A stretch of DNA of 42,478 nucleotides, from the IMG/VR virus record IMGVR_UViG_2698536308_000013; one strand, written 5' to 3'. Position 1 is the first letter of the stretch. Every line of letters begins with the position of its first letter. Positions 18,959 through 32,695 of the stretch are shown piece after piece. The translations under genes and the position numbers were made by a program. The notes under the pieces are model-generated. The model ran no database searches, was not told the DNA's origin, and saw only the letters and a list, made by a program, of their open reading frames with translations. The DNA comes from a virus (taxonomy: Duplodnaviria; Heunggongvirae; Uroviricota; Caudoviricetes).

Positions 18959-19487
18959 TGTTGCCCCCACAAACAGACTTCACGCTCAATCTCACGACGA
19001 GTCATNNNNNNNNNNNNNNNNNNNNNNNNNNNNNNNNNNNNNNNCCTTTCCATTGCTTACCGCCAGCATATGTCCAGCGACGTAGCTGGTCACATGCGCC
19101 TTTGATATCGCCCTGGTTTATTTTGCGAAGAAGCGTCGATGTTCTGAAATTGCCAGCACCCACGTTGTAGACGAACGAGTACAGAGCGCCGCGCGTTGTT
19201 TCCGGTATATCGACTTTGATGTACGGGTTAATTTGTCTGGCAACCGTGGCAAGGTCTTTATTCAAGAGTGTTTTGCATTCTGCTTTGGTATACGTTTTAC
19301 CGAGCATGATGTCTTTTCCTGTATGCCCGTGACATACAGTCCATACACCAACAATATCTTTGTATGGTATGTAGCTGACACCTTCCAGGCCATCGTCACC
19401 ACTTGGGCCAGTGATTAACACTGATGCTATAGCAATTGCTCCGCCACCAATAGCAGCAGCAACGACTTTTCGTAATGATGGAGGCAT
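18957..19487 (-). CDS. SAR-type endolysin (phage 21 R-like lysozyme), interrupted by an N-gap
   Basis: N-terminal signal-anchor-release-like hydrophobic, Gly/Ala-rich segment ([18 protein letters not shown]); stop overlaps the Rz start; exact 3' portion unreadable because of N-run. Confidence 0.65.
19006..19044. other. Assembly gap, 39 N
   Basis: Run of N in the sequence. Confidence 1.
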
Positions 19488-21972: not shown

Positions 21973-22515
21973 TCAAGCCATTTTCTCAGCAAATGATTCA
22001 CGCATGGGAATATATAGGGCATACTCAGCAACAGCTAACCAATTAGCAATCCGTTTTTCGCATGTGCTAAAACACCACTCTGGGTGTGCATCATTTAGCA
22101 ATTCAGCCATTTTGCGCTTAGTCATCCCCCGCCCTTCATAGCGTTGCCGGAGAATGCAAATCAATCCTGGATGCTCTGCCAGCACCTCACTTATGACTCG
22201 ATCAATACATAACGCCTCTGCATCAGTACAATGCGCCAGCCAGCTCTTTTGCTTGCCGTTGATCATCTCTCGCAAAAACGCTTCCAGCTCAGCTTTCTCT
22301 ATTCCCGCTTTTTTCATTCTGCGCAGGGCTTCATTAATGGCTGTTTTCGTCAGTTTTTTGGATGCCAACAACTGATTGAACATATTCCCTGACCTGCCAC
22401 CGCCAATATACGACCAGCGCCCCCACATACGTAGTTTTCCCTGAATCCAGACACTTTCCAGCGTGGTGAGGCGAAGGTGTTCTCCGCTTTTTCCTGTATT
22501 CGTTGGGTAAATCAT
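21973..22515 (-). CDS. Late-gene antitermination protein Q-like
   Basis: 180 aa, last gene of the nin-type block, followed by a promoter-like region and terminator upstream of lysis genes. Confidence 0.55.
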   Translation of the reverse strand: MIYPTNTGKSGEHLRLTTLESVWIQGKLRMWGRWSYIGGGRSGNMFNQLLASKKLTKTAINEALRRMKKAGIEKAELEAFLREMINGKQKSWLAHCTDAEALCIDRVISEVLAEHPGLICILRQRYEGRGMTKRKMAELLNDAHPEWCFSTCEKRIANWLAVAEYALYIPMRESFAEKMA

Positions 22516-22802
22516 AAATGACCTTTCTTTCTCCAGATTTCTTGTGTGCGAAAAACCCCTTCAGCATGCATCAGGCGCAATTCTTCTTTGGTGTAATCGC
22601 TGGTTTTTACCCGCCCGTCGATTAGATCGTGGCATGAGCTACAGGCTATCGCCGCCTGCATATCATGTGGTTTTGTCGCTGTTCCGCACGTCCCCGCCAG
22701 CCTGTAATGCGCCAGCACAGAGGTTTCGGGATTGTGATTGCAGTAGCCAGGGATTCTGATCTGGCACATCTGGCCTTTAGCCGCTTTACGTAAATTCACC
22801 AT
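22512..22802 (-). CDS. Nin-region protein (DUF1364-like, Cys/His-rich)
   Basis: 96 aa with CxxxxxC...CxxC...CSSCH pattern; translationally coupled to flanking genes. Confidence 0.45.
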   Translation of the reverse strand: MVNLRKAAKGQMCQIRIPGYCNHNPETSVLAHYRLAGTCGTATKPHDMQAAIACSSCHDLIDGRVKTSDYTKEELRLMHAEGVFRTQEIWRKKGHL

Positions 22803-23401
22803 TACGCAAACTCCAGTAGTTGTGCGGCCACATTTTCAACTTCCTCCTGAGAGGAGAATTTACGGAACAGAATCCAGTTCCACAGCACATTCAGTACAGA
22901 TTTATAAACCTGCTGAAACTCGACTTCGTCCATATTCGCAAAAGCGATGGATTTTGCCCGACGCCCACGGCTACCGTCCGGATAAATATGCTCGGTGTAA
23001 AATCCGGCCTGAATGGTTACCCACTCGCGGAAAGCCTCAAACGACTTTAGCAACGCCGTATCCCGGGTTCTACGAGTCGCAACGGTGTTAAGGTATTGCT
23101 CTGCGGCATCACTCAGGGCTGGCGTGTGTTCCCGACCAACTGATTCGCACAGGTAATCAACGAAACCAGACAGCAGTTCTCGTTCGCGAGGCGTGATCGC
23201 CCCACCGACCGGAGTCCAGTAATCGAATCCCAGTTGCAGGAGTTTGAAAAAACGCTTGTGGAATGCGTAGTTACGCACACGCTTAAAGTCTGCGTGTATC
23301 CACTCACCTATTTTGATTTGATGCAGAAAATCGCAACTCTCCGGCGTCGCCGGGAGAAGTAAACCAGAAGAGGTTTGTTTGACCAGTTGTATATGCGCCA
23401 T
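22802..23401 (-). CDS. Nin-region protein (DUF1367-like)
   Basis: 199 aa ORF upstream of and coupled to the DUF1364-like gene; family recalled from prophage annotations. Confidence 0.45.
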   Translation of the reverse strand: MAHIQLVKQTSSGLLLPATPESCDFLHQIKIGEWIHADFKRVRNYAFHKRFFKLLQLGFDYWTPVGGAITPRERELLSGFVDYLCESVGREHTPALSDAAEQYLNTVATRRTRDTALLKSFEAFREWVTIQAGFYTEHIYPDGSRGRRAKSIAFANMDEVEFQQVYKSVLNVLWNWILFRKFSSQEEVENVAAQLLEFA

Positions 23402-23681
23402 TTCTCAATCTCTCGATGGCGCAGCGCAGCAGATGCCAGTTGTTCAGGCTGACGAATAAAGTATAAATAAACTGGCTATGGTGTAAAGCCCCACATAGCA
23501 TGAACAAACACTACATATCAAATAGCTGGTACAAGGATAGAAATACGACACTTATTATTAAAAACGATTAGATAAATTACATTTTAATGTTATGCAAAAG
23601 TTCTTTTTTATCATAACATTTCAATAAAAGCATTACAGATGCAATCATCCCGTCATCATCAATTATTTAAGGTGGTTAAAC

Positions 23682-23768
23682 ATGGAAAATAACAAGTTCG
23701 CACATCTCGCTCCTTTTTTATCCGTAATCCTTTTCGCTTGTTGTTTTATATGGGCATTATTTTTATAA
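23682..23768 (+). CDS. Small hydrophobic peptide, 28 aa (MENNKFAHLAPFLSVILFACCFIWALFL)
   Basis: Strong SD AAGGTGG 6 nt upstream of ATG; single predicted TM helix; isolated in an AT-rich ORF-poor region. Below the ORF-track size cutoff. Confidence 0.35.
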   Translation: MENNKFAHLAPFLSVILFACCFIWALFL

Positions 23769-24176
23769 AGTAGCCACATGATAAGTTGCTGGAATCATAT
23801 TTCCCACTCAAGTCATTAACATTTGATAAGATATATCTAAAAGGACGCCTTTACATTATTTATGCGTATATAATTTATTTATATACACAGTAAAGGTATC
23901 CTGGGAAAATATTTATCGTTAAAAAATACATCATAAATAATTAAGCTGAAATTTCAGAACACAACTAATACACACAATAAGGTTCAGTAACAGTAATCTA
24001 TGTGGACTACATCGAGATTTTTTGATTAAACTTTAATAACTTATTCCTAACACACAGAATGCATAAACTAAAAGTAAAACAAATAGTTATACGAAAAACA
24101 ACCATATTTATTCTATCTTCTCCTCTAATCAACATATCAATTATGTGTTTCATAACAGCTTGACATAACCCTCCAA

Positions 24177-24199
24177 AAGATGCATTTTTAATGCATGTT
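24177..24199 (+). promoter_or_regulatory. NsrR-type operator-like palindrome upstream of the yeaR-like gene
   Basis: AAGATGCATTT-t-TAATGCATGTT; left half matches the recalled NsrR half-site AAGATGCATTT; TTGACA -35-like hexamer at 24160-24165. Confidence 0.45.
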
Positions 24200-24214
24200 T
24201 TGGAGGAGGTGGTT

Positions 24215-24553
24215 ATGACACACAAGAGAATTCCTAAAGATTGGGTAATCAAACGCTCAACTCCGTTCTTCACAAAAGAGAACGTACCTTCAGCGTTATT
24301 AACACATCATAATACAGCAGCAGGTGTTTTTGGGCAGTTGTGCGTAATGGAAGGCACTGTAACATATTATGGTTTTACTGATGAGAATGCTACTGAACCG
24401 GAGATAAAAGTAGTCATTAATGCTGGCGCTTTTGCAACAAGCCCACCACAATACTGGCACCGTGTTGAACTAAGCGATGATGCTCAGTTTAATATTAACT
24501 TTTGGGTCGCTCCAGACTTTTCGGGCGAAAAAGTCTATAGCACCAAAAAATAG
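24215..24553 (+). CDS. YeaR-like protein (DUF1971)
   Basis: About 112 aa; RSTPFFTKENVPSALLTHHNTAAGVFGQLCVMEGTVTYYGF resembles recalled E. coli YeaR; RBS GGAGG 7 nt upstream. Confidence 0.6.
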   Translation: MTHKRIPKDWVIKRSTPFFTKENVPSALLTHHNTAAGVFGQLCVMEGTVTYYGFTDENATEPEIKVVINAGAFATSPPQYWHRVELSDDAQFNINFWVAPDFSGEKVYSTKK

Positions 24554-24582
24554 ATGATCATATTAAAAATGCTTTAACAGTC

Positions 24583-24619
24583 AGACCCGGCAGGGCTATC
24601 CCCGACGGGTCTCATTTTT
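24583..24619 (+). terminator. Rho-independent terminator after the yeaR-like gene
   Basis: AGACCCG...CGGGTCT stem followed by CATTTTT, 30 nt after the stop. Confidence 0.6.
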
Positions 24620-25173
24620 GTAAATATATTGGTTCTACATTGACAGGAGACTTCAACCATAAGAAGTAATCTGAATACTTGAGCAATAAATTTACTTAAG
24701 ATTAATGAGCGCACCTTGCCGGACAAAGATAAACCAAGGTAACACCTTTTTTCTAGCCAGTATGTAATCAATCAGAAAGCCGCTCCATAAGAACAACAGC
24801 AAGACAATAAATTGCCATTACAGCCGCAATAGCCAGCGCACATTTGAGAACCAGCACGACAACCCCCTGTATTAGACGCACACCAGTCCTGATAAATATG
24901 AGGCTGTCTCGTCAGTGATTCAATACAACTATTGGGTATAGTTTCTGTGATTTTATTCTGTAGAAATGGAACACAACAACCAGTCACCACCAGCACTTCC
25001 TTAAATGCTCTAAGTCAGAAACAAGCCAACATTTTAGTCCGCTTTGAGCGATCTGCAGACATTGCTAGCAGCCTTCTGTGTGAATTCTCAGGGAGCAGGT
25101 CGGCATAGCATCACGTTGAGGCTCTTACCCTACTTGTTCACACCAACCCTAACTCCACAGACTGATTCATAAA

Positions 25174-26175
25174 TTAGTAATCTGCGTGTTTCGCACTTTT
25201 CAGAAATGCTTTCATATTTTCATTAGGTCGCTCAATTTCGAAGTTACTTCCATATAACTCTTGTAATTTTGGCCATAACTTACTTAATAACCCTCTCCTG
25301 CGATAAAATGGATGTATCCAAACGGTAGATAGGTACGGAGAATTTGCATTTGAATTGTTTATTGTGACCAGCCCAACTAAACATTGTCGATAACCACTAT
25401 TATCCATTGATTGTATTTCTTCGACGAATGGATACGCGATTACATCAGTCCAACCATGATCGGTTGTATCCCATTGCATTCCGTCATGACATTCCTTCGA
25501 CTGATAGCGGCGTAAAGCTACACACGCGAGCTTTTGCCAATCTGGAGAATTAATTGTGATCTCTTCATCGTATGACGCGCCTATTGGAGCGGGTATTGGT
25601 CTGATTAATCCAGCATGGCATTCATCATAGAACTTCATGTTTCCCTCAGAAACGTTGTGTACGTTGGGTTGCTCCATGTGTGCGCCATTCAAAAATAGCT
25701 CTGATAGTAGTGTATCTACACTGTAATCTTTATTGATTATTGTCGGCTTAGAGTTTTTCTTATTAAGGCCGCGAGTAACGATTTTTTGATCAATGTTAAC
25801 AACATGGAATAATCCGTCGGGGAGGCTAGCGAACCACGATGGGGCATCGGACCAGAATAGCATGCCTTTTGTACTTCTTAAGAGTTTAATTAAGTTAATA
25901 CAAGCTTCTTCACTAGTCTTGCCGTTGATGCGAAGTATGTTAGGACTAAAGTAATATTCATCCATATCAGGGAATGCAGCTTCGCAAAACTCCTGTACAT
26001 AATTTAGCACCTGGATTCTACAGAGATCATCATAGCTGGTAATAACTAAGGGGGTATCTTCATTACTATTATGATTATCAATAATGCAATCTATAGCGAG
26101 ACTTACTGCTTTGCGTATCACTTCAGTTGAATCTAACGACTCTAAAAATTTTGTCTTTCGTGTGCGAATATCCAT
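25174..26175 (-). CDS. Hypothetical protein, 333 aa, with possible C-terminal GNAT-like acetyltransferase fold; second gene of a low-GC operon
   Basis: Clean ORF 15 nt downstream of gene A. C-terminus CLVGLVTINN...STVWIHPFYRRRGLLSKLW resembles GNAT beta4-alpha3 with an R-x-x-G motif. N-terminal 230 aa unrecognised. Confidence 0.5.
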   Translation of the reverse strand: MDIRTRKTKFLESLDSTEVIRKAVSLAIDCIIDNHNSNEDTPLVITSYDDLCRIQVLNYVQEFCEAAFPDMDEYYFSPNILRINGKTSEEACINLIKLLRSTKGMLFWSDAPSWFASLPDGLFHVVNIDQKIVTRGLNKKNSKPTIINKDYSVDTLLSELFLNGAHMEQPNVHNVSEGNMKFYDECHAGLIRPIPAPIGASYDEEITINSPDWQKLACVALRRYQSKECHDGMQWDTTDHGWTDVIAYPFVEEIQSMDNSGYRQCLVGLVTINNSNANSPYLSTVWIHPFYRRRGLLSKLWPKLQELYGSNFEIERPNENMKAFLKSAKHADY

Positions 26176-26190
26176 GTATGACCTGCGCTA

Positions 26191-27213
26191 TTAAAATTCA
26201 TGAATGAACGGTTTGTCATCTGGTTGCAAAATGGTGGTTTTATTCGTTGCTACATTTAAACTGTTGTAGAGCATAATTGCCAGGTTCGATGCATTTTCAA
26301 TCAGCGTTTCAAGATCCTGGTCTGTAATCACTACGAGGTTCCCTTCTTTATCCTTTCCACCACGATGCACTAAGTGATTTCGATTGAGGGTTGCCAATTC
26401 AATAGCTTCTATCGGACAGTCTTTTTGTACTTTTATATCGAATGTAGCTTCATAGCGGTCGATTACCTTTTTAGTGCTATGCCAGCTTGCACTGATCAAG
26501 TGTTCCTTGATTGACCTGATTAGCTCTCCCCTAATTTTCTCGATGGGTTCACCCTTGAAAGGCAACGCAGCAATATCTTTGCTTACTTTAAATTCAGTCT
26601 TACCTTTTTCTATACAATTGGCTATGTAGACATCATCTTTCTCTATAGAATTAATGAATAGCTCAACATAAAGCGTTTCCAAAGCTGTAATAACATTCGT
26701 GTAGAGCAAACTAAGCAAGTGGTTTTTTTGCTGTTGTTCAGTTTTATCTTTTGCAAGTTTTTTTATTTTATCGATATTATCAATGAATTTTAAATACGGA
26801 TTACCGGAAGACGTTACAGCGTCGTAGATATCATCATCGTACCAATCATCTATATTATTTGAGTTTCCAGACCAGTCAAAACATTGTGTTTGTAATTCAT
26901 CTACTAATTCCTCAATATACTCAGATTTAACATATTGACCGAAGATGGATTGTAGTTCTTCGCTCGCATCATACGGCCCGCCATATATGTAAGCATAGCC
27001 ACCTTCTCTACTTTCATACGGACAAGCATTTGCCGGATCTTCAAAGTTTTCAAAGAACCAGTTTTTCATTACTTCGAGTTGATCTTTTTTGCTTATGTAT
27101 TTTAAAGATTTTAGTGGAACTTTCTTTCCATTAACCTCGAAAACAATTTTCACGATGTAACGCTCCCTTGTATCAATTGCGCAACTATTATACCACAGCG
27201 AAATACAGGGCAT
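26191..27213 (-). CDS. Hypothetical protein, about 340 aa, with C-terminal HEPN-like R-x4-H motif; first gene of a low-GC operon
   Basis: Perfect SD AAGGAGG 6 nt upstream of the ATG at 27213 (tracked ORF extends to 27282); C-terminal LNRNHLVHRGG fits the HEPN Rx4-6H signature. No other recognisable domain. Confidence 0.5.
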   Translation of the reverse strand: MPCISLWYNSCAIDTRERYIVKIVFEVNGKKVPLKSLKYISKKDQLEVMKNWFFENFEDPANACPYESREGGYAYIYGGPYDASEELQSIFGQYVKSEYIEELVDELQTQCFDWSGNSNNIDDWYDDDIYDAVTSSGNPYLKFIDNIDKIKKLAKDKTEQQQKNHLLSLLYTNVITALETLYVELFINSIEKDDVYIANCIEKGKTEFKVSKDIAALPFKGEPIEKIRGELIRSIKEHLISASWHSTKKVIDRYEATFDIKVQKDCPIEAIELATLNRNHLVHRGGKDKEGNLVVITDQDLETLIENASNLAIMLYNSLNVATNKTTILQPDDKPFIHEF

Positions 27214-27351
27214 AACCTGCCTCCTTAAACTAACATACCATGAGCCAGCAATGTCCGCTATTGGCACAAAGCGGACAACCACGCTAGCTCTCCCCTGTGC
27301 CAGAAAAATGTCAATTTACATATGAACTAATGCTCTTTGATCTAGTAACGT

Positions 27352-27783
27352 CTATAAATACCGAAGATTTCCTTGATAAAATGCCAGTACACGTTTCATA
27401 ACTTCACTCTTCCGGCACTCGCGACAGATTATGTTCTGACGCCTGTCATAGCGGCGTATTTCTCCGTCTGGTAATGACCAGATAAGGTCAGGATCAACCA
27501 CAACCGTTTTTTTCACCTTTGCCCTGGATAGTTTTTTGCGGGCGTTTTTCCAATCCTTACGAGCCTGTTCAGACGGGAATAACCCATAGCCAGAGTTGTA
27601 TACATCGCCACTGGCAACCAACTCTCTGGCAAGAATGCTCATCAGATATCTTGTCGCACCTGTCTTGGCCTCCAGTTGCCTTAACGTCTCGCGCCCACTC
27701 TGGCGTACCAACTCAACAACCTGCTCCTTAATTTTTTCACGCTCTTCCTGTGTAAAAACTTTTGCCATAAGCGCCTCCGGCAA
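27352..27783 (-). CDS. Hypothetical replication-module protein (position of Rac ydaW), N-terminal HTH-like
   Basis: 143 aa; a diverged partial paralogue is at 29732..29979; start overlaps the upstream gene stop. Confidence 0.5.
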   Translation of the reverse strand: MPEALMAKVFTQEEREKIKEQVVELVRQSGRETLRQLEAKTGATRYLMSILARELVASGDVYNSGYGLFPSEQARKDWKNARKKLSRAKVKKTVVVDPDLIWSLPDGEIRRYDRRQNIICRECRKSEVMKRVLAFYQGNLRYL

Positions 27784-28567: not shown

Positions 28568-29314
28568 TTACTTCTCAATTCCTGGCTGGACGACATTCGG
28601 ACGCCAGCTCTCCCAGTTAAAATTCACCCATCGCCCGCCGTTCATGGTCATGCGATCCATAATCCGCTCGCCGAGCAATGTTTTCATGGCCTCATAGTTC
28701 AGGTTTGTCAGCATCCCCACGCTGCGCATCGACGCTGTCCGGCGATCAACAATCTGGTGCAGCACCACCTGCTCGTTTTTCGTCTCGCGCTGAATGCCAA
28801 TTTCATCAAGAACCAGCAGATCCACTTCGCATAGTTCCCGCAAAAATTTTTCGCCTGACTGCCCATCGTCATAGCTGGCGTGCAGGGCACTCATAACATC
28901 AGCCACGGTAACCACAATCACTGTCTGACCGTCTTTCAGCAGGCGATTCCCGATAGCTGCCGCTAAGTGATTCTTCCCGGTACCAGGTTTTCCGCTGAAC
29001 GCAAAATTTGTACACCCGGTCATCAGTTCATCAGCGATGGATTTCGCCTGACTCAACGCGTATCGCTGCGCTTCGTTCTGCACCTGGTAATTCGAAAACG
29101 AGCATTTGCGGTGCAATGGCTGGATGCCAGAGCGATTCAGAATTTTTTCCACCCGCAACTGACGATTCTGACGGTTGATCTCCTCACAACGTTTCTGGCC
29201 TTCGGAAAGTTGCCACTCGCGCCACTCCGCTACCGTCTTGAATGGCGCGGTTACATGTGACGGGGCCAGTCTGCGGATACGTTCAAGAACGTCGCCTGTC
29301 GCAATATTTTTCAT
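28568..29314 (-). CDS. ydaV: DnaC-like helicase loader (Rac YdaV-like), copy 1
   Basis: 248 aa with Walker [14 protein letters not shown] and Walker B LLVLDEIG; IstB/DnaC-type architecture. Confidence 0.85.
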
Positions 29315-29320
29315 GGTCAG

Positions 29321-29720
29321 TTACCCCCTGAAGCCTGGCGGGATCGCACTATCCGGTAACGAGACGGTGTTAACCTGTCGGAGTAACGTCTCAGGTCGAA
29401 CACCTTTCGGCGCGAACAAGCCCTGGTATTCATTGGCGATGCTGTGTCGAATCACCTGCTCAGGTGAAAAACCCTGCTGGCGGAATTTTTCCAGCTCCCG
29501 TATCGCCCCGTTAGCGCCCTGCTCCGTTCGAATCGGTTTTCGCAATGCCTGGCGAAATTCAACCCACTCACGCCAAAGCGAGACAGAAATCCAGTTCGGC
29601 AAAGCAATATCCAGAGGGTCAAACTTTTTGACACCTCGATTCCCCCGGGGGGGATTTAGGGGGGGATCTGTTTTTAGATCTTTATCTGTATCTTTATTAG
29701 TTGCCTTTGTGTTGACATCA
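29321..29720 (-). CDS. C-terminal fragment of an O-like replication initiator (ydaU-type), cut at its 5' side by an N-gap
   Basis: Nearly identical (2 mismatches in first 80 nt) to the 3' end of the ydaU-like gene at 32696..33090; the gap begins exactly where identity would end. Confidence 0.6.
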
Positions 29721-29731
29721 NNNNNNNNNNN
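29721..29731. other. Assembly gap, 11 N
   Basis: Run of N in the sequence. Confidence 1.
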
Positions 29732-29993: not shown

Positions 29994-30740
29994 CTACTTA
30001 ACAACCCTCGAATGGCTAACATTCGGACGCCAGCTCTCCCAGTTAAAATTCACCCAGCGCCCGCCGTTCATGACCATGCGATCCATCACCCGCTCGCCGA
30101 GCAATGTTTTCATCACCTCATAGTTCAGGTTTGTCAGCATCCCCACGCTGCGCATCGACGCTGTCCGGCGATCAACAATCTGGTGCAGCACCACCTGCTC
30201 GTTTTTCGTCTCGCGCTGAATGCCAATTTCATCAAGAACCAGCAGATCCACTTCGCACAGCTCCCGCAAAAATTTTTCGCCTGACTGCCCGTCGTCATAG
30301 CTGGCGTGCAGGGCGCTCATAACATCAGCCACGGTAACCACAATCACTGTCTGACCGTCTTTCAGCAGGCGATTCCCGATAGCTGCCGCTAAGTGATTCT
30401 TCCCGGTACCAGGTTTTCCGCTGAACGCAAAATTTGTACACCCGGTCATCAGTTCATCGGCGATGGATTTCGCCTGGCTTAACGCGTATCGCTGGCCGTC
30501 GTTCTGCACCTGGTAATTCGCAAACGAGCATTTACGGTGCAACGGCTGGATGCCTGAGCGATTCAGAATTTTTTCCACCCGCAACTGGCGATTCAGGCGG
30601 TTGATCTCCTCGCTACGTTTCTGGCCTTCAGCAAGTTGCCACTCGCGCCACTCCGCTACCGTTCTGAATGGGGCGGTTACATGTGGCGGGGTCAGTCGGC
30701 GGATGCGTTCCAGAACGCCGCCTGTCGCAATATTTTTCAT
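29994..30740 (-). CDS. ydaV: DnaC-like helicase loader (YdaV-like), copy 2
   Basis: 248 aa, about 95 percent identical to copy 1 with the same Walker motifs. Confidence 0.85.
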   Translation of the reverse strand: MKNIATGGVLERIRRLTPPHVTAPFRTVAEWREWQLAEGQKRSEEINRLNRQLRVEKILNRSGIQPLHRKCSFANYQVQNDGQRYALSQAKSIADELMTGCTNFAFSGKPGTGKNHLAAAIGNRLLKDGQTVIVVTVADVMSALHASYDDGQSGEKFLRELCEVDLLVLDEIGIQRETKNEQVVLHQIVDRRTASMRSVGMLTNLNYEVMKTLLGERVMDRMVMNGGRWVNFNWESWRPNVSHSRVVK

Positions 30741-30746
30741 GGTCCG

Positions 30747-31423
30747 TTACCCCCTGAAGCCTGGCGGGATCGCACTGTCCGGCAACGAGACGGTGTTAAC
30801 CTGTCGGAGCAACGTCTCAGGCCGAACACCTTTCGGCGCGAACAGGCCCTGGTATTCATTGGCGATGCTGTGTCGAATCACCTGCTCAGGTGAAAAACCC
30901 TGCTGGCGGAATTTTTCCAGCTCCCGTATCGCCCCGTTAGCGCCCTGCTCCGTTCGAATCGGTTTTCGCAATGCCTGTCTGAACCGGACCCACTCATGCC
31001 AGAGTGTTTCCGGCAACCAATCGGGCAGCTCAATAGCCTCCGGCTCGAATTTTTTAGACGCTCGTTTTTGGCGAGGGGGAGATCAGTATTTAGATCTTCC
31101 TCTTCCTCTTCCTCTGGTAACGCTTTTTGATCCGTTTGTGTAACGCTGGCAGCGTTACCTTTTCGTTTCAGTTCGCGTATTTTTGTTACTCGCTCGTTTG
31201 TAACCGCCCGTTTTTTTTAGAGCTTTTTCCGTTATGACGTTCAAAGTTAGGTAGAGAAAGCCCTCCGTCATTTTCGACCAGCCATCCAACCTGAATTAAC
31301 GCATCAGCAAAACCAGACATAAAAGTGATGCGATCTATTGCACTTTTTGTAACGCCGCGAGCGTTACAATCTGCATTACCGTCTATCATTTGTTGATCCG
31401 CCCATGCCCAGAAGCGAATAACC
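30747..31423 (-). pseudogene. O-like replication initiator with a different N-terminal domain, 5' end truncated by the IS, probable frame disruption
   Basis: C-terminal 89 aa match the other O-like copies; upstream part (31186..31423) is in another frame; a T8 homopolymer and a CTCTTC x3 repeat lie in between. Confidence 0.5.
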
Positions 31424-32644: not shown

Positions 32645-32688
32645 AAAAAGAACAAATGGTAGTGTCCGCTATTGCCAGTACACCTCAN

Positions 32689-32695
32689 NNNNNNC
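32689..32695. other. Assembly gap, 7 N
   Basis: Run of N immediately after the IS right end. Confidence 1.

What the first reader, a model, noticed from the sequence alone, without database searches (positions are those of the whole stretch)
25174..27282. Two-gene low-GC operon of unknown function in a moron hotspot: candidate undescribed defence or abortive-infection system
Two tightly linked minus-strand genes (about 340 aa and 333 aa, 15 nt apart, perfect SD on the first) are much more AT-rich than the flanking phage genes. They sit between the replication module and the nin/Q module, a classic accessory position in lambdoid prophages. I recognise neither protein as a standard phage function. 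Gene A ends with an LNRNHLVHRGG motif that fits the HEPN Rx4-6H RNase signature. Gene B has a C-terminal segment resembling a GNAT acetyltransferase core (IHPFYRRRGLLSKLW). A HEPN-type RNase paired with a GNAT-type enzyme would fit toxin-effector logic, but both domain calls rest on short motifs only.
Basis: partly seen in the sequence, partly recalled or inferred. Interest (0 to 1): 0.85.

Follow-up and report, generated by a model that had tools for sequence, protein, structure and literature searches.

The report
Mobile HEPN RNase–GNAT prophage defence cassette
A 2.2-kb mobile cassette in a proven anti-phage "hotspot" of an E. coli Rac-like prophage encodes a predicted RNA-cutting HEPN protein and a GNAT acetyltransferase; neither has been studied, and each also occurs alone elsewhere, so this is probably an untested phage-defence module rather than an obligate toxin–partner pair.

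Summary
Two co-oriented minus-strand genes lie 15 nt apart, at GC 0.36 and 0.39 against about 0.50 in the flanks, between the replication and nin modules of a Rac-like prophage.

One correction: gene A starts at GTG 27153 (320 aa). The ATG at 27213 with the "perfect SD" is not conserved and lies upstream of a conserved extended −10 promoter.

Both motif-based domain calls are confirmed by homolog profiles and structure prediction.
- **A** is a HEPN/RES-NTD1 domain plus a RiboL-PSP-type HEPN domain with an invariant R-x4-H-R.
- **B** is a family-specific N-terminal domain plus a GNAT fold.

No known defence model (PADLOC) and no paper matches either protein.

The site is a real defence hotspot: other prophages carry PD-T7-1, AbiH or a PDC-S15 candidate there. 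The pair is a discrete cassette bounded by palindromic inverted repeats, found in about ten unrelated contexts, with both genes under purifying selection.

However, A and B are adjacent only in one narrow clade. The nearest and the distant relatives of each are solo. Obligate toxin–partner logic is therefore not supported.

Most likely this is a HepS/AbiD-like self-regulated HEPN abortive-infection RNase co-packaged with an autonomous acetyltransferase. It is a new variant of a known kind and remains untested.

The parts
27244..27276 (-). 5' boundary element of the cassette: an imperfect palindrome, GTCCGCTTTGTGCCAATAGCGGACATTGCTGGC
   Evidence: Homology to unrelated contigs starts here. It is one arm of inverted repeat I1. 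The motif was found at the 5' edge of nearly all paired loci. It folds at -26.8 kcal/mol, z -2.7. The same element sits about 55-70 nt after DUF977 in about 1,300 E. coli genomes and in at least 120 viral contigs, ahead of other cargo.
27187..27195 (-). Putative cassette promoter: extended -10, TGgTATAAT
   Evidence: Read from the sequence. TGGTAYAAT is conserved in 9 of the 10 cassette copies aligned with the window, including the A-deleted derivative L010. It was not picked up by the consensus scan because the -35 is poor. Its function is inferred.
27163..27167 (-). Shine-Dalgarno (GGGAG) of gene A, 9 nt before the GTG start
   Evidence: AAGGAG/GGGAG is conserved.
26191..27153 (-). Gene A: 320 aa, GTG start, stop included; HEPN/RES-NTD1 plus RiboL-PSP-type HEPN protein (WP_014639476.1)
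   Evidence: dN/dS is 0.12-0.21.
26809..27153 (-). A residues 1 to about 115: HEPN/RES N-terminal domain 1 (predicted sensor/regulatory module), with motif WFxxNFEDP...PYESREGGYxYIYGGPYDA
   Evidence: PF18870 scores 22.2 bits in the window protein (gathering score 27.4) and hits 38 of 39 homologs. Invariant residues are listed.
26230..26736 (-). A residues about 140-308: HEPN four-helix domain
26362..26382 (-). HEPN catalytic motif R258-N-H-L-V-H263-R264 (Rx4H)
   Evidence: Invariant in all 39 aligned homologs.
26176..26190 (-). 15-nt A-B spacer (junction TAATAGCGCAGGTCATACATG including the stop and start codons)
   Evidence: Nearly invariant while A diverges to 84% and B to 78% identity.
25174..26175 (-). 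Gene B: 333 aa, stop included; N-terminal domain plus GNAT acyltransferase domain (WP_000354966.1)
   Evidence: dN/dS is 0.20-0.43.
25621..26175 (-). B residues 1-185: family-specific alpha/beta N-terminal domain of unknown function (invariant I28, C30, I32, N34, R100, R135, N138)
   Evidence: No Pfam or PDB match. In the exhaustive search it occurs only in full-length B homologs.
25177..25620 (-). B residues 186-333: GNAT-fold module that also exists as a stand-alone protein family of about 160 aa
25273..25317 (-). GNAT motif-A region IHPFYRRRGLLSKLW (beta4 to alpha3; invariant W286, H288, P289, R292)
   Evidence: The Pfam PF00583 match covers residues 264-311.
25037..25069 (-). 3' boundary element: GCTAGCAATGTCTGCAGATCGCTCAAAGCGGAC, the inverted-repeat partner of the 5' element
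   Evidence: It folds at -22.1 kcal/mol.

Best explanation
The region is a discrete 2.2-kb mobile cargo cassette (window 25037-27276). It is bounded by palindromic inverted repeats and carries its own promoter. It sits in a genuine anti-phage hotspot just downstream of the replication module of a Rac-like lambdoid prophage. It co-transcribes two modules that are each autonomous elsewhere. Module A is a self-contained abortive-infection-type HEPN endoribonuclease. Its N-terminal HEPN/RES-NTD1 domain is inferred to hold the C-terminal Rx4H HEPN nuclease inactive until a phage-derived cue appears. The activated oligomer would then cleave tRNA or mRNA and abort the infection, as shown experimentally for the non-homologous prophage protein HepS. 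Module B is an acyl-CoA-dependent GNAT transferase with a private N-terminal domain. I judge it most likely to be a second, independently acting modifier or effector that was recently co-packaged with A, rather than A's dedicated antitoxin. Shown here: gene structure, folds, conserved catalytic motifs, cassette boundaries, mobility, hotspot identity, purifying selection, and the separability of A and B. Inferred: RNase activity, phage triggering, anti-phage phenotype, and B's substrate.
Against: There is no experimental data for either protein. The window proteins themselves fall just below the Pfam gathering scores: 22.2 vs 27.4 for NTD1, 19.9 vs 20.7 for GNAT, and no direct PF18735 hit. The invariant 15-nt spacing, the single promoter and the joint mobility would also fit a functionally integrated pair. 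B's motif A is atypical: G295 is not invariant and the final G/A position is Leu. Small B-like GNATs occur in phage replication modules, which hints at a phage-side function rather than defence. The hotspot also carries non-defence cargo such as QueH, a methyltransferase and an alpha/beta hydrolase.
Confidence: 0.5

Rival explanations
1. Integrated two-component system. B is an enzymatic regulator or antitoxin of A, analogous to a type VII toxin-antitoxin system. It would acetylate the HEPN RNase (or its NTD1 domain) to keep it silent. Phage infection would stop that modification or deplete acetyl-CoA or B itself, releasing the RNase.
Against: A relatives at 33-76% identity, with intact catalytic residues, are solo, including a single-gene insertion beside sucD. 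So A does not need B to be tolerated. B relatives are solo in most lineages, unlike dedicated antitoxins. No second independent association of the A and B families was found. One contig has an intact A with a frameshifted B (L020). No complex prediction could be run.
Confidence: 0.22
2. This is prophage or phage fitness cargo rather than host defence. B would be a host-takeover or counter-defence acetyltransferase, and A an RNA-processing or regulatory nuclease serving the prophage's own cycle.
For: Stand-alone B-like GNATs of about 160 aa sit in phage replication modules, overlapping the stop codons of primase/helicase-like genes (DUF3987, AAA_25). The cassette lies within the early rightward operon region. 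The hotspot also holds non-defence cargo such as QueH and a methyltransferase.
Against: The cassette also occurs in chromosomal, non-prophage contexts next to restriction-like and dynamin-like genes. Solo A and solo B neighbours are mostly defence genes. The HEPN/RES-NTD1 domain accompanies toxin domains in conflict systems: the family name and the PIN-type co-domains of P0116 are, and what those domains are is my recollection. The cassette has its own promoter and low GC, like a lysogen-expressed moron.
Confidence: 0.15
3. This is a selfish addiction or stabilisation module (a toxin-antitoxin pair that stabilises the mobile cassette or prophage) with no anti-phage role.
For: It is a mobile, repeat-bounded, two-gene toxin-like cassette, and hok-type addiction genes lie in the same region of related prophages.
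Against: Both single-gene loss variants and many solo homologs exist, which is incompatible with strict addiction. IS-disrupted copies persist.
Confidence: 0.08

Closest known systems
HepS (Gifsy-1 prophage solo HEPN abortive-infection anticodon nuclease; PMC13043305)
   Same: It is a HEPN Rx4-6H protein encoded in the accessory slot after the replication genes of a lambdoid prophage. It is a single-protein sensor and effector. It is the best mechanistic model for gene A.
   Different: No detectable sequence homology: the A-family profile finds nothing in PDB sequences. A carries an extra HEPN/RES-NTD1 domain and belongs to the RiboL-PSP/AbiD-F branch. HepS has no co-transcribed GNAT. The trigger and RNA target of A are unknown.
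RiboL-PSP-HEPN family (PF18735) and HEPN/RES-NTD1 (PF18870), computational families (Anantharaman et al. 2013, PMC3710099)
   Same: A's homologs hit both profiles. The family is predicted to be catalytically active and distantly related to AbiD/AbiF.
   Different: The described associations were fusion to L-PSP or an operon with ParB. No GNAT partner was described, and I found no experimental work. The window protein itself scores below the gathering thresholds.
AbiD/AbiF (Abi_2) and other single-gene HEPN Abi proteins
   Same: They are single-gene HEPN abortive-infection proteins on mobile elements. The RiboL-PSP family is stated to be their distant relative.
   Different: Neither A nor any A homolog hits Pfam Abi_2. 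The N-terminal domain is different.
HEPN-MNT (type VII) and RnlAB/LsoAB toxin-antitoxin systems
   Same: All have a HEPN RNase toxin with an adjacent second gene. HEPN-MNT toxins and LsoA are among the structural hits. The toxin-first order matches rnlAB and lsoAB (my knowledge).
   Different: The partner here is a GNAT, not a nucleotidyltransferase or a small labile antitoxin. Co-occurrence is not obligate.
GNAT toxins of GNAT-RHH toxin-antitoxin systems (TacT, AtaT, ItaT, KacT)
   Same: They are small GNAT-fold enzymes on mobile elements that block translation by acetylating aminoacyl-tRNA (my knowledge). This is a possible model for B as an effector.
   Different: There is no RHH/DUF1778 antitoxin gene. 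B has a 185-aa N-terminal domain. The B profile finds no such toxin in PDB sequences. The top fold hits are other GNAT classes.
Defence hotspots of P2 phages and P4 satellites (Rousset et al. 2022, PMC9122126) and lambdoid 'morons'
   Same: A fixed position in a temperate phage genome holds interchangeable, low-GC, independently promoted defence cargo.
   Different: This hotspot is in Rac/lambdoid phages, after DUF977. Several of its cargos, including A-B, are bracketed by a specific pair of palindromic inverted repeats. I did not find this feature described.

Membership tests
HEPN superfamily (RiboL-PSP-HEPN branch) | Rx4-6H catalytic motif | tested here: met
   R258-NHLV-H263, followed by R264, is invariant in 39 homologs.
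HEPN superfamily (RiboL-PSP-HEPN branch) | All-alpha HEPN four-helix fold | tested here: met
HEPN superfamily (RiboL-PSP-HEPN branch) | Significant match to Pfam PF18735 | tested here: inconclusive
   The window protein has no hit at E<=1. 19 of 39 homologs hit, best E 1e-9, so membership rests on transitivity.
HEPN superfamily (RiboL-PSP-HEPN branch) | Metal-independent endoribonuclease activity | not testable with these tools
   Needs biochemistry.
HEPN/RES-NTD1 (PF18870) | Profile match of the N-terminal domain | tested here: inconclusive
   The window protein scores 22.2 bits against a gathering score of 27.4, E 1.9e-4. 38 of 39 homologs hit at E<=0.01.
GNAT acyltransferase superfamily | GNAT alpha/beta fold | tested here: met
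GNAT acyltransferase superfamily | Motif A, Q/R-x-x-G-x-G/A (acyl-CoA pyrophosphate loop) | tested here: inconclusive
   The sequence is R292-R-R-G295-L-L297. R292 is invariant, G295 is not, and the last position is Leu in the family.
GNAT acyltransferase superfamily | Pfam PF00583 at the gathering score | tested here: inconclusive
   19.9 bits against 20.7. 12 of 35 homologs hit, best E 6e-6.
GNAT acyltransferase superfamily | Acyl-CoA binding and acyl transfer | not testable with these tools
   Needs biochemistry.
Toxin-antitoxin pair (type II / type VII, HEPN-MNT-like) | Obligate co-occurrence of the two genes across the families | tested here: not met
   A and B are adjacent only where A is at least 84% identical to the window copy. 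All other A and B homologs examined are solo.
Toxin-antitoxin pair (type II / type VII, HEPN-MNT-like) | The partner is an MNT nucleotidyltransferase or a small labile antitoxin | tested here: not met
   The partner is a 333-aa GNAT protein.
Toxin-antitoxin pair (type II / type VII, HEPN-MNT-like) | The partner neutralises the toxin | not testable with these tools
   Needs genetics or biochemistry.
GNAT-RHH toxin-antitoxin (TacAT/AtaRT type) | An adjacent RHH/DUF1778 antitoxin and a GNAT toxin of about 170 aa | tested here: not met
   No such neighbouring gene. B is 333 aa. The B profile does not hit these toxins in the PDB.
Catalogued anti-phage systems (PADLOC-DB 2.0.0) | Significant match to any system model | tested here: not met
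   Only noise-level hits for A (E>=0.01) and none for B.
HepS family | Sequence homology to HepS | tested here: inconclusive
Prophage moron / hotspot cargo | Deviant GC, variable occupancy of a fixed site, own promoter | tested here: met
   GC 0.39 against 0.50 in the flanks. At least 12 alternative cargos occupy the same site. A conserved extended -10 is present, but its function is inferred.

The most novel reading that the evidence does not exclude
There are two linked novelties that the evidence does not exclude. (a) B is an acetyltransferase that chemically gates the HEPN RNase. This would be an acetylation-based type-VII-like defence or toxin-antitoxin logic not yet described. The small phage-encoded GNAT homologs would then be counter-defence mimics, as T4 Dmd is for RnlA/LsoA. 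(b) The paired palindromic boundary elements define a previously unrecognised cassette-exchange mechanism. It would shuttle defence genes (A-B, a 314-aa ORF next to PD-T7-1, a 212+214-aa pair and others) into a lambdoid-phage hotspot and out to chromosomal sites in other genera.
Probability: 0.2. Interest if true: 0.85.

Novelty: new variant of a known kind. Interest (0 to 1): 0.6.

Why it matters
About 4% of complete E. coli genomes, including ExPEC/APEC strains such as S88 and the type strain, carry this cassette annotated only as "hypothetical protein". If it is protective, it adds a new HEPN-based abortive-infection module to the E. coli immune repertoire. That module has a domain architecture (NTD1 plus RiboL-PSP HEPN) that has never been tested, and an unprecedented GNAT companion. 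It would also give the widespread HEPN/RES-NTD1 domain a testable role as a phage sensor. Separately, the palindrome-bounded cassettes at a lambdoid hotspot offer a concrete sequence handle. They can be used to mine further defence genes, since at least 12 cargo types are already visible and most are unannotated. They can also be used to study how defence genes move between phages and chromosomes.

Tried and rejected
- **Direct profile scans of the two window proteins:** Pfam, NCBIfam, PADLOC and PHROGs gave only sub-threshold or uninformative hits. I needed homolog sets to settle the domains.
- **PDB sequence-profile searches for both families:** nothing found.
- **A conserved alternative partner for solo A or solo B:** none found. 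AbiH follows A twice and an Abi_2/HEPN gene lies next to B once, but neither association is consistent.
- **IS insertions as natural knockouts (H1, H8):** uninformative. They lie upstream of A and at the A-B junction.
- **Consensus promoter/terminator scan:** no more sites than in shuffled sequence, and it missed the extended -10.
- **Rfam scan of 22500-27500:** no hits.
- **The boundary repeats as a genome-wide REP/MITE-like repeat:** rejected. They occur about once per genome, at this hotspot, and solo A or B copies do not carry them.
- **Literature searches:** RiboL-PSP, HEPN plus GNAT, the WP accessions and lambdoid hotspots returned no prior description of these proteins.
- **First attempts with wrong coordinates:** these failed on a frame error.

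Full report
**Observation.** The two minus-strand ORFs are real: A at 26191..27282 (maximal ORF) and B at 25174..26175, separated by 15 nt. GC is 0.361 for A and 0.391 for B, against about 0.50 in the flanking replication and nin genes and 0.459 for the whole window. A 100%-identical E. coli locus shows the context is a Rac-like prophage. The order is recET, ralR, kilR, sieB, ydaT, DnaC, DUF1627, DUF977, then A and B, then DUF1971, DUF1367, DUF1364, DUF1133 and the lysis genes. Both proteins are annotated "hypothetical". The cassette is at least 99% identical in about 205 of 5,426 complete E. coli genomes.

**Start of gene A.** One detail needs correcting. Aligning the leader from ten other cassette copies shows that the ATG at 27213 behind AAGGAGG is not conserved. 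It reads ATA in two copies and is disrupted in two others. It also lies upstream of a conserved extended −10 element, TGGTAYAAT (27195–27187). The conserved start is GTG 27153 (ATG in one copy) behind GGGAG/AAGGAG. That gives the 320-aa protein that RefSeq calls and that nearly all homologs match.

**What the proteins are.** Direct Pfam scans of the window proteins are only suggestive:
- A hits HEPN/RES-NTD1 at 21.8–22.2 bits, below the gathering score of 27.4.
- B hits GNAT at 19.9 bits, just below 20.7.

The homolog sets settle both calls.

An exhaustive profile search shows that full-length B is a rare family, with about 10 representatives at 50% clustering. Its C-terminal ~150 residues correspond to a larger family of stand-alone proteins of about 160 aa that share all its motifs. 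B's N-terminal 185 residues have no detectable relatives outside the family.

No PADLOC or NCBIfam model matches either protein, and PHROGs lists both as "unknown function".

**Are A and B a pair?** I scanned 99 loci with HMMs of both families.
- A and B are adjacent, A first, only where A is at least 84% identical to the window copy.
- Enterobacterial A homologs at 51–72% identity and distant ones at 33–40% have no B.
- B homologs at 39–68% identity have no A.

The one closer B copy without A (86% identity, L010 in Rahnella) is a deletion derivative, described below.

The nearest outgroups confirm the pattern. A at 76% identity is a single-gene insertion with its own intrinsic terminator beside sucD. 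B at 68% identity stands alone beside a ddrB-ParB gene.

Neither gene has a consistent alternative partner.
- Solo A lies next to P4-type integrases, AbiH (twice), a DpnII-type REase and DUF2326 (PDC-M68B).
- Solo B lies next to a ThsA-like SIR2 gene, an Abi_2/HEPN gene, antirestriction-RadC, and ICE or XRE genes.

These are defence-island or mobile-element contexts, and they support a conflict-related role for each gene on its own.

**Stability of the pair within its clade.** Inside the paired clade the operon is stable.
- The junction TAATAGCGCAGGTCATACATG is nearly invariant while A falls to 84% and B to 78% identity.
- dS values for the two genes track each other.
- Both genes are under purifying selection: dN/dS is 0.12–0.21 for A and 0.20–0.43 for B.

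Natural loss variants go both ways.
- L010 (Rahnella) has an internal deletion of A that leaves the leader and an intact B.
- A DnaC–B chimera has lost A in one Rac lineage.
- Metagenomic contigs show a frameshifted B with an intact A, and the reverse.

Obligate toxin–antitoxin logic is therefore not supported, although regulatory coupling is not excluded.

**A mobile cassette in a defence hotspot.** Homology between the window and unrelated contigs starts sharply at about 27277 and ends at about 25037. Flanking genes in about nine other contexts share nothing with the window prophage. Some of them are McrB-like or dynamin-like genes.

The two ends are 33–46-nt inverted repeats. Each is itself an imperfect GTCCGC…GCGGAC palindrome that folds stably.

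The 5′-type element also occurs once per genome in about 1,300 E. coli genomes that lack the cassette, about 55–70 nt after DUF977. It is also found in at least 120 viral contigs. There it is followed by at least 12 alternative cargos and then by conserved hokD/DUF968 genes. These cargos include:
- PD-T7-1 (E 7e-157), a system validated experimentally in PMC9519451
- a 463-aa protein plus AbiH
- a PDC-S15 FRG-domain protein
- many unannotated ORFs

At least three different cargos are closed by the 3′-type element: A-B, a 314-aa ORF, and a 212+214-aa pair. Solo A and solo B copies lack these repeats.

This is a real defence hotspot with repeat-bounded, swappable cassettes.

**Mechanism.** The best precedent is HepS, a solo HEPN protein in the equivalent accessory slot of the Gifsy-1 lambdoid prophage. 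It is constitutively made, held inactive as a tetramer, activated by a phage tail-tip protein, and then cleaves tRNA anticodons (PMC13043305).

A is not a detectable sequence homolog of HepS. It does share the logic of a single protein that both senses and acts. Its NTD1 domain also accompanies RES and PIN-type toxin domains in other proteins (the domain codes are; what they are is my recollection). That fits a role as a regulatory or sensor module.

I therefore commit to the following. A is a self-restrained abortive-infection RNase. B is an autonomous GNAT modifier that was co-packaged recently. Confidence is 0.5.

The main rival is that B enzymatically gates A, like a type VII system (0.22). 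Lesser rivals are phage-side fitness or counter-defence cargo (0.15), suggested by small B-like GNATs in phage replication modules, and a pure addiction module (0.08).

**Novelty and verdict.** Neither protein appears in the papers searched or in PADLOC 2.0.0. A belongs to a family that has been described computationally but never tested experimentally. The HEPN–GNAT operon and its palindrome-bounded cassette form are new, but they sit within the known theme of prophage-encoded HEPN abortive-infection defence. I rate it a new variant of a known kind, with interest 0.6. All functional statements remain inferences until the cloning, mutant and phage-challenge experiments listed under next steps are done.

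Noticed in passing
window 27244-27276 and 25037-25069; also L103 3741-3773 and 4906-4938; L118-L237: Paired palindromic inverted repeats (GTCCGC-N12-GCGGAC cores) bracket the A-B cassette. In other prophages they bracket different cargos: a 314-aa ORF next to PD-T7-1, and a 212+214-aa pair. The 5'-type element marks the start of a variable cargo region after the replication module in at least 120 viral contigs and about 1,300 E. coli genomes. This may be a cassette-exchange system. No target-site duplication or recombinase was identified.
   Followed up: partly
L118-L237 (viral contigs), the position just after the 5'-type element: At least 12 alternative cargo types occupy the hotspot. Several are frequent but unannotated: ORFs of 595, 269, 356, 341, 310 and 484 aa, and pairs of 212+214 and 379+417 aa. 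They are candidates for further undescribed defence genes.
   Followed up: no
L010 5816-7075 (Rahnella contaminans); P0148 / L115-L117 (E. coli): Two independent decay products keep B but lose A. One is an internal deletion joining the cassette leader to the last ~60 nt of A ahead of an intact B. The other is an in-frame chimera of DnaC residues 1-119 with B residues 134-333, found in at least 15 contigs.
   Followed up: yes
L110 4001-4483; L112 2938-3420; L113 1091-1570; L111 4001-4510: Stand-alone homologs of B's GNAT half (about 160 aa) often overlap the stop codon of a primase/helicase-like gene (DUF3987, AAA_25, or an 802-aa protein) in phage-like contigs. One lies after dnaG-rpoD in a chromosome. 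This suggests a phage replication-linked or counter-defence role for the small form.
   Followed up: partly
L055 1219-3232; L056 6001-8063: In two loci a solo A homolog (62-65% identity) is followed about 85-90 nt downstream, on the same strand, by an AbiH gene. This may be an alternative two-gene arrangement. AbiH, with a 463-aa partner, is also one of the cargos at the E. coli hotspot (L108).
   Followed up: partly
window 23400-24553: A very AT-rich tract (GC 0.305 at 23401-24200) has no long ORF and no Rfam hit. Next to it is a plus-strand DUF1971 gene (24191-24553). This looks like a second, separate low-GC insertion between the cassette and the DUF1367 nin-region gene.
   Followed up: partly
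window 28593-29578 vs 30019-31004; N-runs at 19006-19044, 29721-29731 and 32688-32694: The DnaC/ydaU part of the replication module is duplicated at 94.7% identity over 986 nt, with a second partial DUF977-like ORF interrupted by an 11-N masked run. This could be a tandem duplication, a hybrid of two prophages, or an assembly effect.
   Followed up: partly
L105 (E. coli O78 strain 3) and L106 (strain MB56): IS elements have hit the cassette. IS2 lies between DUF977 and gene A. In MB56, ISSen4 copies lie both upstream of A and exactly at the A-B junction, which probably silences or uncouples the operon.
   Followed up: yes
window ~25100 (cassette 3' UTR); L009, L030, L031, L034, L037, L040: A conserved segment of about 48 nt (AGATTTATAACATGCTAAACATC...CCCCATTCGTT...) is present in the 3' UTR of six cassette copies and absent from the window, L028 and L033. 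In L034 an extra 263-aa ORF lies between B and the 3' repeat.
   Followed up: no
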